Below are positions 26,217 to 53,731 of a DNA stretch of 64,000 nucleotides, piece by piece. The DNA lies in the IMG/VR virus record IMGVR_UViG_2706795722_000001, positions 12,965-76,964 of that record; one strand, written 5' to 3'. The position numbers and the translations under genes were made by a program. Position 1 is the stretch's first letter; every line of letters begins with the position of its first letter. The stretch is from a virus. Its lineage: Duplodnaviria > Caudoviricetes. The notes beneath the pieces are model-generated. The model was not told the DNA's origin. It worked only from the letters and a program-made list of their open reading frames with translations, and searched no databases.

Positions 26217-26398
26217 GATATACGTCCCATCTTCTGTAGTCGAGTTACTTCAAACACGCCAGCTTTTCTCCAGTGTATAGAATTGTGAATCCACACTGTC
26301 TTGCAAGTCTTGCACCGATAAACGGTACCGAGAGTTACCCTTCCTTCGTACGAAGGACAGTAGGCACAGTTGCTAACTGAACTCGGCGAAGAGGTCAT
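26213..26398 (-). CDS. Small Zn-ribbon protein (61 aa)
   Basis: CAYC and CKTC motifs. ATG lies inside the 3' end of the methyltransferase gene. Confidence 0.5.
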   Translation of the reverse strand: MTSSPSSVSNCAYCPSYEGRVTLGTVYRCKTCKTVWIHNSIHWRKAGVFEVTRLQKMGRIS

Positions 26399-27095
26399 TG
26401 CTATCCTCCTCGAGCTTCTTTGCGGCCCGCTCGTAGCGAACCTCATCGAGCTCGATCGCTACCGCGTTCCGGTTGCAGTTCTTCGCGGCTCGGACGAGGG
26501 AGCCAGAACCGCCAAAGGGGTCGACAAGAAAGGCTCCCTCGGTTGTGGAATGCTTGATAAGAAGCTCCAGCAGCGCCGGAGGCTTCTCGTGAGGATGGAT
26601 GAGCGCGTCAGGCCGAAGCTGGGGAATGTGAAGAACACCGTTCCGTCGCTTGGCGTTTCGGGGCGCTCGGCCCTTCTTGAGAAAGATGATGAACTCATGT
26701 CCCTGTCCCCACGATTCGAGGTCGCCCATGCCGGGGCCGTCCTTCTCCCACACGAGCACAGCCTTGCGCACGAACCCGTACTGGCTGCAGAACTCGTCCA
26801 GCATGGCGAGCCATTCCTTGAGGACCTGATACGCGGTGAACACGTACAGGTCGCAGTCTTCCTTGGTTGCCGGAAGTAGCGAGCTCATCACGTCCTTGAA
26901 GACCTGAATCGCCACCTCCGGATTCTCGTCGTTCGCGATCTTCGTTGCGTACTTCTTGCCACCCTCGGTAACCGCCATGTTGCTGAGGTTGTCCACGCCG
27001 AAGGGCGGGTCGGTGATGATGCAGTCCACCGAGTTGGGCTTGAACTTCTGGCACAGCTCGATACTGTCGCCGTGCCAGATCTGATGAATCTTCAC
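26373..27095 (-). CDS. Amino-DNA methyltransferase (N6-adenine/N4-cytosine, beta class), apparently orphan (240 aa)
   Basis: Motif IV TDPPF near the N-terminus and motif I LVDPFGGSGS near the C-terminus, plus HPHEKP. No adjacent restriction enzyme recognised. Confidence 0.9.
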   Translation of the reverse strand: MKIHQIWHGDSIELCQKFKPNSVDCIITDPPFGVDNLSNMAVTEGGKKYATKIANDENPEVAIQVFKDVMSSLLPATKEDCDLYVFTAYQVLKEWLAMLDEFCSQYGFVRKAVLVWEKDGPGMGDLESWGQGHEFIIFLKKGRAPRNAKRRNGVLHIPQLRPDALIHPHEKPPALLELLIKHSTTEGAFLVDPFGGSGSLVRAAKNCNRNAVAIELDEVRYERAAKKLEEDSNDLFAEFS

Positions 27096-27117
27096 ATCAC
27101 TCCTTTAAGTTGAGATT

Positions 27118-27282
27118 GAGGGCACACAGTTCGTTAGGCACGCGGTCTGTCGTTTAATGTCAGCAAGTCGCCTCTGCATGACACCCTCAGGTTTGTAGTG
27201 GTCACTCGGGCCAGAATCGGAGAAACGCGCCCAATACCAGCATTAGCGTGCTAGCCCAAGTCGTTACCGCTGGTGCGACCAC
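27118..27282 (-). ncRNA. Candidate structured RNA (two three-way junctions plus loop-loop pseudoknot)
   Basis: Six helices found by hand, with G-U pairs consistent only with the minus strand. No credible ORF in the ~190-nt gap. Confidence 0.5.
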
Positions 27283-27289
27283 AGCCCAG

Positions 27290-27541
27290 CTACTCCGTGA
27301 CCTCGATCTCGTCATCGTCGGAGAACTCGACATCCTCGAGCGTGATCTGGTTGATCTCGCCGCCGATCTCGTCGAGGATCAGGTTGAGGTCGCCCTCGTT
27401 GCTGTCCACGATGTCGGCCACCTCGTTGTAGGCGGTCTCGATCTTGTCGTCGTCGGACACGTTCGAGGGGTCGTCGAAGACGTCGCCGTCGATCTTGATG
27501 GTCTTGGGGTTGTCGATGTGCAGCTTCAGGGTGAGGATCAT
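27290..27541 (-). CDS. Very acidic small protein (83 aa, 26 D/E vs 4 K/R)
   Basis: AGGAG RBS, GC3-biased codons, composition counted by hand. Confidence 0.75.
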   Translation of the reverse strand: MILTLKLHIDNPKTIKIDGDVFDDPSNVSDDDKIETAYNEVADIVDSNEGDLNLILDEIGGEINQITLEDVEFSDDDEIEVTE

Positions 27542-27550
27542 GATGTTCTC

Positions 27551-27805
27551 CTAGTTGTTCTCGTTGTTGGGGATGGTGATGACTTCGTTGTGGATGATCT
27601 TGCTGAGTGAGATCTTGACCTCGCCTGTCTCGCCGGCCAGGTTGAAGATGACCTCCTCGAGGGAGGCCTCGCCTGCGCGGTACATATCCAGGTCGAGGTT
27701 AACCGCATCCTGGATGGTTGCGACCCCGCTGGGGCAGTCGTCGGTCTTGTAGTTGTCGAGATTGACCTCGGCGTCGAGAATCTCGACCTCGAAGTAGAGG
27801 CGCAT
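27551..27805 (-). CDS. Acidic small protein (84 aa)
   Basis: MRLYFEVEILDAEV... begins at the ATG overlapping the MazG stop, in the frame of track ORF 27551..28240. Confidence 0.7.
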   Translation of the reverse strand: MRLYFEVEILDAEVNLDNYKTDDCPSGVATIQDAVNLDLDMYRAGEASLEEVIFNLAGETGEVKISLSKIIHNEVITIPNNENN

Positions 27806-52355: not shown

Positions 52356-52722
52356 AGTTTGCACTCCTTACGGTAGTGGTGTGTAGTTCTGTAGTCCGGA
52401 CTGGACTAGAGGGAGCGTCGGGCACGGGCGCGCCGGTAGATTTCGCGCACGAGGCTAGGTGATGCACGTAGGGGGATTACGCCCCGACGCTTCCACTAGA
52501 CGAGTCCGAATTGAGGGCGGTCGCCGCGCGGGGCTTAGTGTGACCCGCGCCAGCCGCGCGGCGACCTGTTGTTGCGCTGTCGTGACGCCCTGACCCGTGT
52601 CGGAGGTCTCGACCTTCGGGCGGGGGCGCGGCGACAACTTCGTGATTGACACGCTCACGATGGGCGCTCGGTACGCCTCGGTAACTAGGTGATGCCTCCA
52701 CCCGACCTTATCGTACCCGTCC

Positions 52723-52750
52723 CCCGCGCTACCTCATTCGGTAGCGCGGG
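52723..52750 (-). terminator. 11-bp hairpin downstream of the 306-aa gene
   Basis: CCCGCGCTACC-TCATTC-GGTAGCGCGGG. Confidence 0.55.
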
Positions 52751-52810
52751 ACGCTCAGGGCCTATGCGGCTTGTTTTAACGTGGGCCCTGACCCACGGGA
52801 CGCTCGGACG

Positions 52811-53731
52811 TTAGTCCTTCGTCGCGCCCTTGACGCCCTGCTCGTTCTCGCCGGGGGTCACGCCCTCGACGCCGGACTTGCCGAACAGGCGCGCCGACAC
52901 GGCACCGCTGGACGGGTGATCGTCGCCGTACTCCTCCGAGGAGTGCTTCACGATCTCCGAGACGGTGAGGAACGTGCCCGAGGCGACACCATCGAACGCG
53001 CTCTCGATGTGCGCGGCCACGTTGCGGCGGACGCCGGTGAACGGGGCACGCGGGGCACCCGAGGCGGTGCGACCCTTGCCGAGGCCCTTGCCCTGCACGA
53101 GCTTGACCGCAGCGGCGGCGACGGGGCTGATCTCGGGCGCGTCGCCACGGGTCTCCTCGTCCTCACGCGACCACTCGATGTACTCCTCGGCCTCGCGGGT
53201 GGCGATGTCGATATCGAGGGGCTCGAAGTCCTGCACCTCGTCGGGCGCGGTGTTCACGAGGACCTCGCGGGCGATCTCGAGGGCGGCGACACGCTCGGCG
53301 AACGCGACGGCCGGATCGACCTTCGGCGCGGCGGGCTTCGGCTCGGCCTTGGTGGTCAGGAGCCGGTCGCTGATCTCGTTGTACGAGACGGCCTTGATGT
53401 ACTCGCCCGCCGGGAGCGCGGCCTTCATCTGGTCGTTCACGTAGTTCTTGGCCAGGTTCTTGTACTTGATGCCACCGGTCACGGCACGGTACGCGGCGGA
53501 GACGGCGTCGAGGTTGGCCTCGGTCACGGTGCCGGTGTCGGCGTCGGCCTCCTCCACGGCCTTCTCCACGGCCTCGGTGAAGTTGTCGACGGCGGGCAGG
53601 TGCTCGGCGTCGGCGGCGGCCTGCTTGGCCTCCTTCTCCTCGGCGGTGGGCTCGGTGGCCTCGGGGGCCTGCTCGACGCTGGCGTCGAACTCGGTGTCGT
53701 CGGCGGTGAAGACGTCGGTGCGGTCGCTCAT
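52811..53731 (-). CDS. Ala/Glu-rich, probably highly expressed early protein with possible C-terminal DNA-binding domain (306 aa)
   Basis: Extreme GC3 bias, AGGAGGT RBS, its own promoter, and LTVSEIVK...HPSSGAVSARL. Confidence 0.85.
   Translation of the reverse strand: MSDRTDVFTADDTEFDASVEQAPEATEPTAEEKEAKQAAADAEHLPAVDNFTEAVEKAVEEADADTGTVTEANLDAVSAAYRAVTGGIKYKNLAKNYVNDQMKAALPAGEYIKAVSYNEISDRLLTTKAEPKPAAPKVDPAVAFAERVAALEIAREVLVNTAPDEVQDFEPLDIDIATREAEEYIEWSREDEETRGDAPEISPVAAAAVKLVQGKGLGKGRTASGAPRAPFTGVRRNVAAHIESAFDGVASGTFLTVSEIVKHSSEEYGDDHPSSGAVSARLFGKSGVEGVTPGENEQGVKGATKD

What the first reader, a model, noticed from the sequence alone, without database searches (positions are those of the whole stretch)
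27118..27282. Compact structured RNA immediately upstream of the DNA methyltransferase
Seen on the minus strand. Domain 1: P1 GUGGUCGC/GUGACCAC (27282-75/27205-198), P2 ACCAGC/GCUGGU and P3 UUGGGC/GCCCGA form a three-way junction with 0/1/0-nt linkers. Domain 2: P4 GAGGGU/GCCCUC encloses GUCA-U-GCAG/UUGC-UGAC and ACAG/CUGU. The P2 loop GCACGC (27251-46) is complementary to GCGUGC (27143-38) in the last loop, a 6-bp long-range pairing. All non-Watson-Crick pairs are G-U on this strand and would be A-C mismatches on the other. I could not match it to SAM-I/IV or any riboswitch I know. Inference: a riboswitch-like or ribozyme-like element controlling the methyltransferase, or an independent phage ncRNA.
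Basis: partly seen in the sequence, partly recalled or inferred. Interest (0 to 1): 0.75.

Follow-up and report, generated by a model that had tools for sequence, protein, structure and literature searches.

The report
New pseudoknotted RNA family in actinophages
The first half of the flagged stretch is one copy of a conserved, knotted RNA fold that I could not find described anywhere; it recurs in many phages of Gordonia, Tsukamurella and Mycobacterium (including the model phage L5) whatever the neighbouring genes, so it is a self-contained RNA module of unknown function and not a switch dedicated to the methyltransferase.

Summary
Domain 1 (window 27197-27283, minus strand) is real and conserved. 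About 87 nt recur in unannotated intergenic DNA of at least 20 actinophage lineages, always in the sense of the flanking genes. On 29 distinct sequences, four helices are 94% paired and 20 of 27 pairs show changes on both sides (covariation 0.446, against 0.143 shuffled and at most 0.081 slid).

Its P3 is mis-paired: the 3' arm pairs with the first UUGGGC, which makes P2 a pseudoknot. GCACGC forms a local helix P4. Domain 2 and the long-range pairing are not conserved.

About 20 unpaired nucleotides are invariant, including GGUAACGA. A shorter form with the same core occurs in L5, Che12 and other cluster A mycobacteriophages upstream of thyX.

Nothing in Rfam 15 matches, and I found no paper describing it.

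Flanking genes are unrelated across at least 15 contexts. Most genomes carry one copy. The closest relatives with the same methyltransferase (TIN3/TIN4) lack it. So it is not a methyltransferase riboswitch.

Function is inferred only. My best guess, at about 0.4, is a self-cleaving or RNA-processing module, like the Pistol ribozymes in the same phages. Rivals are a stable ncRNA, a riboswitch and an antitermination RNA.

The parts
27197..27283 (-). Whole conserved element (long form of the 'GGUAACGA' pseudoknot motif)
   Evidence: Covariance model R1 scores it 75.2 bits, E = 5e-17, covering model positions 1-87 in full. It is the only copy in the window and in the 76,964-bp genome.
27277..27282 (-). 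P1 5' strand GUGGUC. G27276 can close the helix as a G.U pair with U27204.
   Evidence: In the family, P1 has GGUC/GACC nearly invariant, and its outer pairs covary as GC, UA, CG, AU and GU. G8 and U130 are invariant in 29 of 29 sequences.
27198..27203 (-). P1 3' strand GACCAC, preceded by the invariant U27204
27269..27274 (-). P2 5' strand ACCAGC. This is the pseudoknot strand, lying between P1 and the conserved linker.
   Evidence: P2 is 98.3% paired. Three of its 6 pairs change on both sides, for example A-U 16 against C-G 13 at the outer pair. This copy reads CCAGC/GCUGG where most read CUCGC/GCGAG.
27261..27268 (-). Invariant single-stranded linker GGUAACGA
   Evidence: 29 of 29 at seven positions and 28 of 29 at the eighth, in sequences found by BLAST. 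It is also present in the short form.
27252..27260 (-). P3 5' strand CUUGGGCUA
   Evidence: Pairs with 27205-27213. In the family it is 96.5% paired, and 8 of 9 pairs change on both sides.
27205..27213 (-). P3 3' strand UGGCCCGAG
27246..27250 (-).
   Evidence: P4 is 96.6% paired, and 4 of 5 pairs change on both sides. Examples are Stormageddon GCGUGC/GCACGC and StAugustine GCGCCG/CGGCG. This copy has an A27249.C27227 mismatch.
27226..27230 (-). P4 3' strand GCGCG
27236..27241 (-). P2 3' strand GCUGGU, inside the P4 loop. It is flanked by conserved UA(AU) (27245-27242) and AUUGG (27235-27231).
27214..27225 (-). Variable loop between P4 and P3 (12 nt here; 11-15 nt in most copies, about 60 nt in one metagenomic copy)
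27118..27190 (-).
   Evidence: No homologue shares it. The fold z-score is -1.02. No promoter or terminator consensus was found in it.
27290..27541 (-). Upstream 83-aa acidic protein gene. Its stop codon lies 7 nt before P1.
   Evidence: The protein is 41% identical to Woesvirus gp47 and 42% to TIN3 Orf41, so the synteny is the same while the spacer differs.
26373..27095 (-). DNA methyltransferase gene (GTG start), 101 nt downstream of the element
   Evidence: 92.2% identical in DNA to the annotated TIN3/TIN4 DNA methyltransferase.

Best explanation
SHOWN. Window 27197-27283 (minus strand) is one member of a structured-RNA family of actinobacteriophages that I could not find described. The fold has these parts.
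- A closing helix P1 (GGUC/GACC plus 2-4 variable pairs).
- A pseudoknot helix P2, formed between the strand after P1 and the apical loop of a long hairpin.
- An invariant 8-nt linker, GGUAACGA.
- The hairpin itself (P3, plus P4 in the long form), and one invariant U before P1 closes.

The element is transcribed in the sense of the surrounding genes. It usually starts 3-15 nt after the stop codon of the preceding gene. It is present once per genome and occurs next to unrelated genes.

INFERRED. It acts by itself on the RNA that carries it. My best guess is a small self-cleaving ribozyme, or an equivalent RNA-processing module, that cuts the polycistronic early or middle transcript at this point. 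That would uncouple the fate of the upstream and downstream cistrons, here the acidic-protein gene and the methyltransferase gene.

The 0.4 given here is for that mechanism. That the family and its fold are real I put at about 0.93.
For: Family and fold.
- BLAST of the spacer finds only Domain 1, in unannotated intergenic DNA of 38 and then 62 phage records.
- On 29 distinct sequences the helices are 94.0% paired, against 76.9% when shuffled.
- 20 of 27 pairs change on both sides. The covariation score is 0.446, against 0.143 shuffled (0 of 500 shuffles reach it) and 0.042-0.081 with partners slid by 1-3 columns.
- All four helices covary, including the pseudoknot.
- The unpaired positions G8, GGUAACGA, UA, A..GG and U130 are invariant.
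- Thirteen distinct short-form copies were found with a pattern that fixes only GGUCG, CGGUAACGA and UGACC. In them the first four P3 pairs are paired in 13, 13, 13 and 12 of 13 copies, with four pair types each. The two pairs beyond GGUC/GACC are paired in 13 of 13.
- No Rfam family matches at E up to 10.

Autonomy.
- Flanking proteins fall into unrelated singletons across at least 15 contexts.
- There is one copy in 13 of 14 motif-bearing genomes.
- Presence is sporadic: TIN3 and Hotorobo, which share the synteny, have no copy.

Likeness to ribozymes.
- The size (54-90 nt), the pseudoknot, the roughly 20 invariant junction nucleotides and the optional peripheral domain (long and short forms) all fit small self-cleaving ribozymes.
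- So do gene-context independence and patchy occurrence in phage spacers. That this is how such ribozymes behave is established knowledge, not tested here.
- Pistol ribozymes live in the same phages: window 52716-52796 (starting 14 nt after a stop codon), GMA2, GTE7 and TIN3.
- In one metagenomic phage contig the motif and a Pistol ribozyme share one 330-nt spacer, 167 nt apart on the same strand.
Against: - No known ribozyme model matches, and no candidate cleavage site can be named.
- Pistol is common in this phage group whether or not the motif is present (TIN3 has Pistol but no motif), so the co-occurrence is weak evidence.
- One copy per genome, terminator-like hairpins right after the element in about eight lineages, and one copy inside a tRNA array fit a stable ncRNA gene at least as well.
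- This window's copy has the lowest score of the complete copies (75.2 bits) and an A.C mismatch in P4.
Confidence: 0.4

Rival explanations
1. A stable, trans-acting non-coding RNA gene. It would be excised or terminated from the transcript and would bind a conserved host or phage component. Candidates include a tRNA-like RNase P substrate, a Y-RNA-like ligand of host Ro60/Rsr, or a decoy against a host nuclease or defence system.
For: - One copy per genome.
- Strong hairpins directly downstream in GMA3, Jumbo, Evaa, Apricot, Hangman, the M. abscessus prophages and a Pseudonocardiaceae MAG. In Hangman and the prophages the next gene is convergent, so nothing lies downstream to regulate.
- In contig L134 the element lies in a same-strand tRNA array.
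- P1 is exactly 7 bp in 11 of 29 copies.
- The GGUCGA...UGACC end helix resembles the Ro60-contacted GGUCCGA and the YrlA motif GNCGAAN0-1G (PMC4201824).
- High primary-sequence conservation across unrelated phages would fit a conserved host partner.
Against: - No recognisable promoter. The element abuts the preceding stop codon.
- Short forms lie 20-45 nt before the next start codon without a terminator.
- No TROVE/Ro60 gene in this genome. The VWA protein next to the GMA6 copy has no TROVE domain.
- No tRNA call and no YrlA or Y RNA model hit.
- The YrlA motif is matched only as GUCGA.
Confidence: 0.25
2. A riboswitch or other cis-regulator of the downstream gene. It would sense a metabolite such as SAM/SAH, a nucleotide or a folate and control the methyltransferase, or thyX in cluster A phages.
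For: - An aptamer-like core closed by P1, with invariant junction nucleotides.
- The neighbours are often DNA or nucleotide metabolism genes: methyltransferase here and in Woesvirus, RNR and ThyX in L5 and Che12, helicase clusters in GMA3 and Jumbo.
- Short forms sit just upstream of a ribosome-binding site.
Against: - Downstream genes are unrelated in at least 15 contexts.
- Some copies end operons.
- The element is tied to the upstream stop codon, while its distance to the next start varies from about 17 to 240 nt.
- No conserved expression platform. Domain 2 is unique to this phage.
- Phages with the same methyltransferase lack the element.
- No match to any riboswitch model.
Confidence: 0.12
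3. An RNA that acts on the transcribing RNA polymerase, as HK022 put or the Bacillus EAR element do. It would let transcription read through downstream terminators at the boundary between gene blocks, or alternatively stop it there.
For: - Single copy in the early or middle region.
- A terminator-like hairpin follows immediately, and same-strand genes follow that, in GMA3, Jumbo, Evaa and Apricot.
- In GTE7/GMA7 and Evaa a consensus promoter follows, read from the sequence.
- Strong sequence conservation would fit binding to the host polymerase, which is conserved across Mycobacteriales.
Against: - Copies at convergent operon ends would drive antisense read-through.
- Most copies, this one included, have no terminator consensus nearby.
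- No similarity to the EAR model in Rfam.
Confidence: 0.1
4. A DNA-level element, such as a miniature mobile element, a recombination site, or a single-strand replication or priming signal. In that case the RNA fold would be incidental.
For: Patchy distribution and different insertion contexts. P1 looks like short terminal inverted repeats. The spacer upstream of the methyltransferase has been exchanged between relatives.
Against: - Compensatory changes keep four helices, including a pseudoknot.
- The element is always in the sense orientation of the flanking genes.
- G.U exceeds A.C, 36 to 23.
- One copy per genome, and no target-site duplications seen.
Confidence: 0.04

Closest known systems
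Small self-cleaving ribozymes of phage spacers (Pistol RF02679, twister, hatchet, hammerhead)
   Same: They share the 50-90 nt size and a pseudoknotted or junction core with many invariant unpaired nucleotides. They also share variable peripheral stems, sense orientation in spacers, independence from neighbouring genes and patchy distribution. Pistol occurs in the same genomes, and once in the same spacer.
   Different: No covariance model of any ribozyme class matches. The helix order (P1a, P2a, P3a, P2b, P3b, P1b) differs from the helix orders of Pistol, HDV, twister and hatchet as I recall them. Cleavage is untested.
H-type and hairpin-loop-outside pseudoknot riboswitch aptamers (SAM-II/V, preQ1-II/III, SAH, c-di-GMP-II)
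   Same: A compact pseudoknot with a conserved linker strand that could line a groove or a pocket, closed by a terminal helix.
   Different: No model match. No coherent set of regulated genes. No conserved expression platform. The element is attached to the upstream gene's end.
Bacterial Y RNAs (YrlA) bound by Ro60/Rsr, known in M. smegmatis, Gordonia and some mycobacteriophages (PMC4201824)
   Same: A terminal helix made of the 5' and 3' ends with GGUCGA / UGACC, resembling GGUCCGA and GNCGAA. Both occur in actinobacterial hosts. Size is about 90 nt.
   Different: No tRNA-like T and D arms. No rsr gene nearby or in the genome. No model hit. The bulged C is absent.
Processive antitermination RNAs (HK022 putL/putR, Bacillus EAR)
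   Same: Cis-acting, protein-independent, highly conserved RNA placed inside operons ahead of terminators. EAR also contains a pseudoknot.
   Different: No sequence or model similarity. Many copies have no terminator downstream, or lie at convergent operon ends.

Membership tests
Any Rfam 15 family (including SAM-I, SAM-IV, SAM-I/IV, SAH and all ribozymes) | Covariance-model score at or near the family's gathering threshold | tested here: not met
   Nothing at the gathering threshold except a distant Pistol hit elsewhere in the window. At E up to 10 on 26900-27500 there were only spurious snoRNA and miRNA hits. Homologous loci and short forms also gave nothing.
New 'GGUAACGA pseudoknot' motif (defined here) | P1 GGUC/GACC, G, P2a, GGUAACGA, a P3(-P4) hairpin with P2b in its loop, U, P1b | tested here: met
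   The window copy scores 75.2 bits over the full model. All helices can be drawn at 27197-27283, with one A.C mismatch in P4.
Riboswitch | Conserved aptamer with covariation | tested here: met
Riboswitch | Consistent association with a functionally coherent set of downstream genes | tested here: not met
   Downstream proteins are unrelated across at least 15 contexts, and several copies have no downstream gene on the same strand.
Riboswitch | Expression platform (terminator or anti-terminator, or RBS sequestration) that competes with P1 | tested here: inconclusive
   Hairpins follow in about eight lineages, but I saw no alternative pairing with the aptamer. Domain 2 of this copy is not conserved.
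Riboswitch | Specific ligand binding | not testable with these tools
   Needs in-line probing or ITC.
Self-cleaving ribozyme | Compact conserved core with invariant junction nucleotides, tolerant of variable peripheral stems | tested here: met
Self-cleaving ribozyme | Site-specific self-scission | not testable with these tools
   No RNA-end data could be obtained.
Y RNA / YrlA | Encoded next to an rsr (TROVE/Ro60) gene | tested here: not met
   No TROVE match in the 76,964-bp genome. GMA6 Orf62 next to its copy is VWA-only.
Y RNA / YrlA | 5' motif GNCGAAN0-1G (or GGUCCGA) in the terminal stem | tested here: inconclusive
   Only GGUCGA is conserved. Position 10 covaries within P2 and the trailing G is absent.
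Y RNA / YrlA | tRNA-like T and D arms | tested here: not met
   ARAGORN finds no tRNA-like gene in the window. No YrlA or tRNA model hit on the element.
Processive antitermination RNA (put/EAR) | Lies upstream of terminators within one transcription unit | tested here: inconclusive
   True for GMA3, Jumbo, Evaa and Apricot. Not for this window or for copies at convergent ends.

The most novel reading that the evidence does not exclude
The element founds a new class of catalytic or ligand-binding RNA, most attractively a new small self-cleaving ribozyme class. It is spread through phages of Gordonia, Tsukamurella and Mycobacterium, including the model phage L5, where it sits between the RNR and thyX genes and could be tested genetically at once.
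Probability: 0.35. Interest if true: 0.9.

Novelty: categorically new. Interest (0 to 1): 0.78.

Why it matters
New structured-RNA classes with a pseudoknot, four covarying helices and about 20 invariant nucleotides are rare. Most earlier ones turned out to be ribozymes, riboswitches or partners of core machinery.

This one is confined to actinobacteriophages; 150 sampled host genomes gave no copy outside a likely phage fragment. It is present in well-studied, genetically tractable phages (L5, Che12, Woes and GTE7-like), so its function can be tested directly.

It also corrects the annotation. The spacer is not a methyltransferase leader, and in some records the element is overlapped by a called CDS.

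If it is a ribozyme or processing signal, it would add to the evidence that these phages punctuate their polycistronic transcripts with RNA modules, as they do with Pistol. If it binds a host factor, it would be a new phage-host interface in mycobacteria-related hosts.

I rate it 'categorically new' in the sense of an RNA family without known relatives. The kind of function may still prove to be a known one.

Tried and rejected
I rejected this as a criterion because the conserved fold is pseudoknotted, and minimum-free-energy folding draws a different structure.
- Rfam at the gathering threshold and at permissive E-values, on the window, on homologues and on short forms: nothing.
- tRNA or tmRNA: none.
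- First IMG/VR pattern (17 fixed bases): mostly chance hits, with only five true ones.
- Bacterial genomes: no hit with the strict pattern. One hit with a broader pattern, on a 2.4-kb contig of an UNPUBLISHED Pseudonocardiaceae MAG. That sequence is one of the 29 rows in the second alignment; the first alignment (23 rows) gives the same result without it.
- 150 sampled Mycobacteriales genomes: only that MAG plus one 31.9-bit hit in 77% GC DNA, which I judge spurious.
- One metagenome contig.
- Ro60 idea: no TROVE gene in the genome, and the GMA6 neighbour is a VWA/AAA pair.
- Same-site replacement by a known RNA in relatives: the TIN3 and Hotorobo spacers match no Rfam family, and the TIN3 spacer is unique to TIN3/TIN4.
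- Second copy in the window: none.
- Literature: no description found in six full-text searches and three papers read.
- Automated downstream-hairpin scan: noisy, used only together with reading the sequences.

Full report
1. WHAT IS AT THE COORDINATES

On the minus strand, an 83-aa acidic-protein ORF (27290-27541) ends with UAG. A GTG-start ORF (26373-27095) follows 194 nt later. That ORF is 92% identical in DNA to the annotated DNA methyltransferase of Tsukamurella phages TIN3 and TIN4. The window lies in a complete 76,964-bp virus record.

Energy alone does not mark the region. The fold z-score is -1.00 for 27118-27282, -0.10 for the whole spacer and +0.04 for the opposite strand. Rfam 15 has nothing here even at E up to 10, and ARAGORN finds no tRNA.

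2. ONLY DOMAIN 1 IS CONSERVED, AND IT IS WIDESPREAD

A sensitive BLAST of the spacer against 50,697 phage records hit 38 records. Every hit used only query positions 3-97, which is Domain 1, and lay in DNA with no annotated feature. A second search with the GTE7 copy raised this to 62 records.

The copies come from many unrelated genera:
- Woesvirus.
- GMA3, GMA2, Jumbo, GTE7/GMA7/Austin and GMA6.
- Chidiebere-like phages, Stormageddon, DumpTruck/Zany, Evaa and Apricot.
- Mycobacterium phages StAugustine and Hangman.
- Mycobacterium abscessus prophages.
- Metagenomic contigs also carry it.
These are documented.

In every annotated case the element has the orientation of the flanking genes.

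3. THE CONSERVED FOLD

I aligned 23 and then 29 distinct copies and counted pairs for explicit structures.

The supported structure on the second alignment is:
- P1, columns 1-7 with 131-137.
- P2, columns 10-15 with 45-50, a pseudoknot.
- P3, columns 24-33 with 121-129.
- P4, columns 35-39 with 56-60.

For this structure 94.0% of cells are paired, against 76.9% when shuffled. Twenty of 27 pairs show changes on both sides. The covariation score is 0.446, against 0.143 shuffled (0 of 500 shuffles reach it) and 0.042-0.081 when partners are slid by 1-3 columns. The first alignment gives the same picture.

Every helix covaries. Examples, read:
- P1 in Evaa is CUGAGCC/GGCUCAG.
- The outer pair of P2 is A-U in 16 sequences and C-G in 13.
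- P3 appears as CUGAGA/UCUCAG, CUGUGU/ACACGG, GGAUCAG/CUGAUCC and CGAGAGGU/GCCUCUCG.
- P4 appears as GCGUGC/GCACGC and GCGCCG/CGGCG.

It is only 72.5% paired and has one covarying pair. So P1 and P2 were correct, but the 3' arm belongs to the first UUGGGC.

GCACGC is the 5' strand of P4, not a free loop. In this copy P4 has an A.C mismatch (A27249.C27227).

The invariant unpaired positions are the G after P1, GGUAACGA, UA, A..GG and the single U before the P1 3' strand.

G.U cells outnumber A.C cells 36 to 23, and 28 to 8 in P3. This is a modest strand signal. The uniform sense orientation is the stronger argument for an RNA.

A covariance model of the nested helices scores the window copy at 75.2 bits (E = 5e-17). 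This is the lowest score among complete copies, which range from 85 to 100 bits.

4. A SHORT FORM, AND PHAGE L5

The model found a second, weak hit in GMA6, 11 nt after the head-decoration gene. It keeps P1, G, P2a, CGGUAACGA, P3, U and P1b, but its hairpin is short and lacks P4.

I then scanned IMG/VR with a pattern that fixes only GGUCG, six free bases, CGGUAACGA and UGACC. It returned 42 loci, where I expected roughly 6-20 by chance (my estimate, scaled). Thirty-three of them were new, and they hold 25 distinct matched sequences. Fifteen of those have a P3 of 3-10 bp at the expected place and a P1 extension of at least 2 bp. Ten have no P3 (0 or 1 pair) and look like chance matches.

In the 13 short forms, the first four P3 pairs are paired in 13, 13, 13 and 12 of 13 copies, with four pair types each. 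The two P1 pairs beyond GGUC/GACC are paired in 13 of 13. Two further long forms have completely different P2 and P4 sequences that still pair: contig L134 has CAUCGC/GCGAUG and GAGGAC/GUCCUC.

The short form is the spacer between gene 49 (RNR) and gene 48 (thyX) of mycobacteriophage L5, of Che12 and of many other cluster A phages. It lies just downstream of a stoperator-like sequence. It has no Rfam match either.

5. CONTEXT

Naive ORF calls and the record annotations put the upstream stop within about 15 nt of P1 in most contexts; here the gap is 7 nt. The distance to the next start codon varies from about 17 to about 240 nt.

Flanking proteins cluster only within closely related phages. Across at least 15 independent contexts they are unrelated.

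The neighbours include:
- a methyltransferase (this phage and Woesvirus);
- small ORFs ahead of a helicase (GMA3, Jumbo);
- RecA (DumpTruck);
- a SprT-like protease (Evaa);
- a CobT-like VWA protein (GMA6);
- a metallophosphatase (StAugustine);
- a head-decoration gene (GMA6 short form);
- RNR and ThyX (cluster A).

About eight long-form lineages have a strong hairpin directly after the element. In Hangman and in the M. abscessus prophages the next gene is convergent. In GTE7/GMA7 and in Evaa a consensus promoter follows, read from the sequences. In this window I found no promoter or terminator consensus between the element and the methyltransferase gene.

The model finds one copy in 13 of 14 motif-bearing genomes. 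It finds none in TIN3 or Hotorobo.

The 83-aa acidic protein upstream is homologous to Woesvirus gp47 (41%) and to TIN3 Orf41 (42%). So the gene order acidic protein, spacer, methyltransferase is shared, while the spacer itself differs: the motif here and in Woesvirus, unrelated sequences in TIN3 and Montyvirus.

Among 150 sampled Mycobacteriales genomes, the only convincing hit was a 2.4-kb contig of an UNPUBLISHED MAG. That sequence is one of the 29 rows, and nothing else in this report rests on it.

6. MECHANISM

What is shown: a conserved, pseudoknotted, sense-strand RNA fold that is independent of its neighbouring genes, present once per genome, and patchily distributed even among close relatives.

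This rules out the specific claim of a methyltransferase riboswitch. It makes any metabolite riboswitch unlikely, because there is no coherent regulon, no conserved expression platform, and some copies end operons.

Among self-contained RNA functions, I rank a small self-cleaving ribozyme or RNA-processing module first, at about 0.4. Four things point that way:
- The anatomy fits: size, pseudoknot, many invariant junction nucleotides and an optional peripheral domain.
- The way it is distributed fits: sporadic, and independent of context.
- It sits in phage spacers.
- Pistol ribozymes occupy comparable positions in the same phages.

The Pistol evidence is as follows. The window has one at 52716-52796, starting 14 nt after a stop codon. 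GMA2, GTE7 and TIN3 have one too. In contig L140 a Pistol lies 167 nt from the motif in the same spacer. This is an argument by analogy, not a demonstration. Pistol also occurs without the motif.

A stable ncRNA gene comes second, at about 0.25. One copy per genome, trailing hairpins, a copy inside a tRNA array, a frequent 7-bp P1, and a GGUCGA/UGACC end helix reminiscent of the Ro60 site of Y RNAs all favour it. The lack of a promoter, the lack of an rsr gene and the short forms that abut ribosome-binding sites count against it.

Antitermination (about 0.1), a riboswitch (about 0.12) and a DNA-level element (about 0.04) follow.

7. NOVELTY AND VERDICT

No Rfam 15 family matches, and I found no paper describing the element. 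Earlier notes of this scan only restate the same stretch, and two further look-ups found nothing.

I therefore treat it as a new RNA family, with a long and a short form, of unknown function. The interesting object is the 87-nt Domain 1, not the 165-nt two-domain model.

Noticed in passing
window 52716-52796 (minus strand): Pistol ribozyme hit just above threshold (35.8 bits, gathering score 34.5). It starts 14 nt after the stop codon of a 306-aa ORF (52811-53731, phrog_6708, function unknown). Stronger Pistol hits occur in TIN3 (61.5 bits), GMA2 (56.8) and GTE7 (48.1).
   Followed up: partly
L146 1517-1587 (mycobacteriophage L5, NC_001335, between genes 49 and 48): The short form of the motif lies between the RNR and thyX genes of L5, Che12 and many cluster A phages, immediately after a stoperator-like CTTGACATCCACC. 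Other cluster A phages, such as StarStuff and D29-like D32, align only from the thyX start onward, so their spacer differs and they may lack it.
   Followed up: partly
L140 9304-9629 (minus strand; IMG/VR contig 3300000440_000053): One roughly 330-nt spacer holds the short-form motif, then a terminator-like hairpin, an AT-rich stretch and a Pistol ribozyme (44.4 bits).
   Followed up: partly
L134 2039-4857 (IMG/VR contig 3300050821_007764): A long-form copy with entirely different P2 and P4 sequences lies inside a same-strand array of seven tRNA genes, 6 nt after a 245-aa ORF.
   Followed up: no
L111 399-462 (GMA6, NC_030906 76698-76761): GMA6 carries both a long form (after a CobT-like VWA gene) and a short form (after the head-decoration gene). 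It is the only genome seen with two copies.
   Followed up: partly
L092 999-1084 (Gordonia phage Apricot): The element lies inside the annotated CDS gp57 ('DNA repair protein', locus 520-1230). Either that CDS is called too long or the element overlaps coding sequence there. In Evaa the upstream gene's TGA stop lies inside P1.
   Followed up: no
L088 998-1078 (Gordonia phage Zany): A decayed copy. The 5' two thirds are intact, but the P3 3' strand is missing and P1 is shortened (57.5 bits). The related DumpTruck has an intact copy at the same site.
   Followed up: no
L001 1411-1509 (TIN3) and L109 614-705 (Hotorobo): The spacer between the acidic-protein gene and the methyltransferase gene holds three unrelated sequences in related phages (motif, a TIN3-specific 96 nt, a Montyvirus-specific 92 nt). 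All contain hairpins. The site looks like an exchange hotspot.
   Followed up: partly
window 27290-27805 (minus strand): Two small acidic proteins lie upstream of the element. The 83-aa one has homologues at the same position in Woesvirus and TIN3 (41-42% identity).
   Followed up: partly
L080 about 1620-1650 (GTE7) and L091 about 1105-1140 (Evaa): Near-consensus sigma-70-type promoters (TTGACA, 17 nt, TACTAT or TATTCT) lie just downstream of the element. In these phages, then, the element ends a transcription unit.
   Followed up: no
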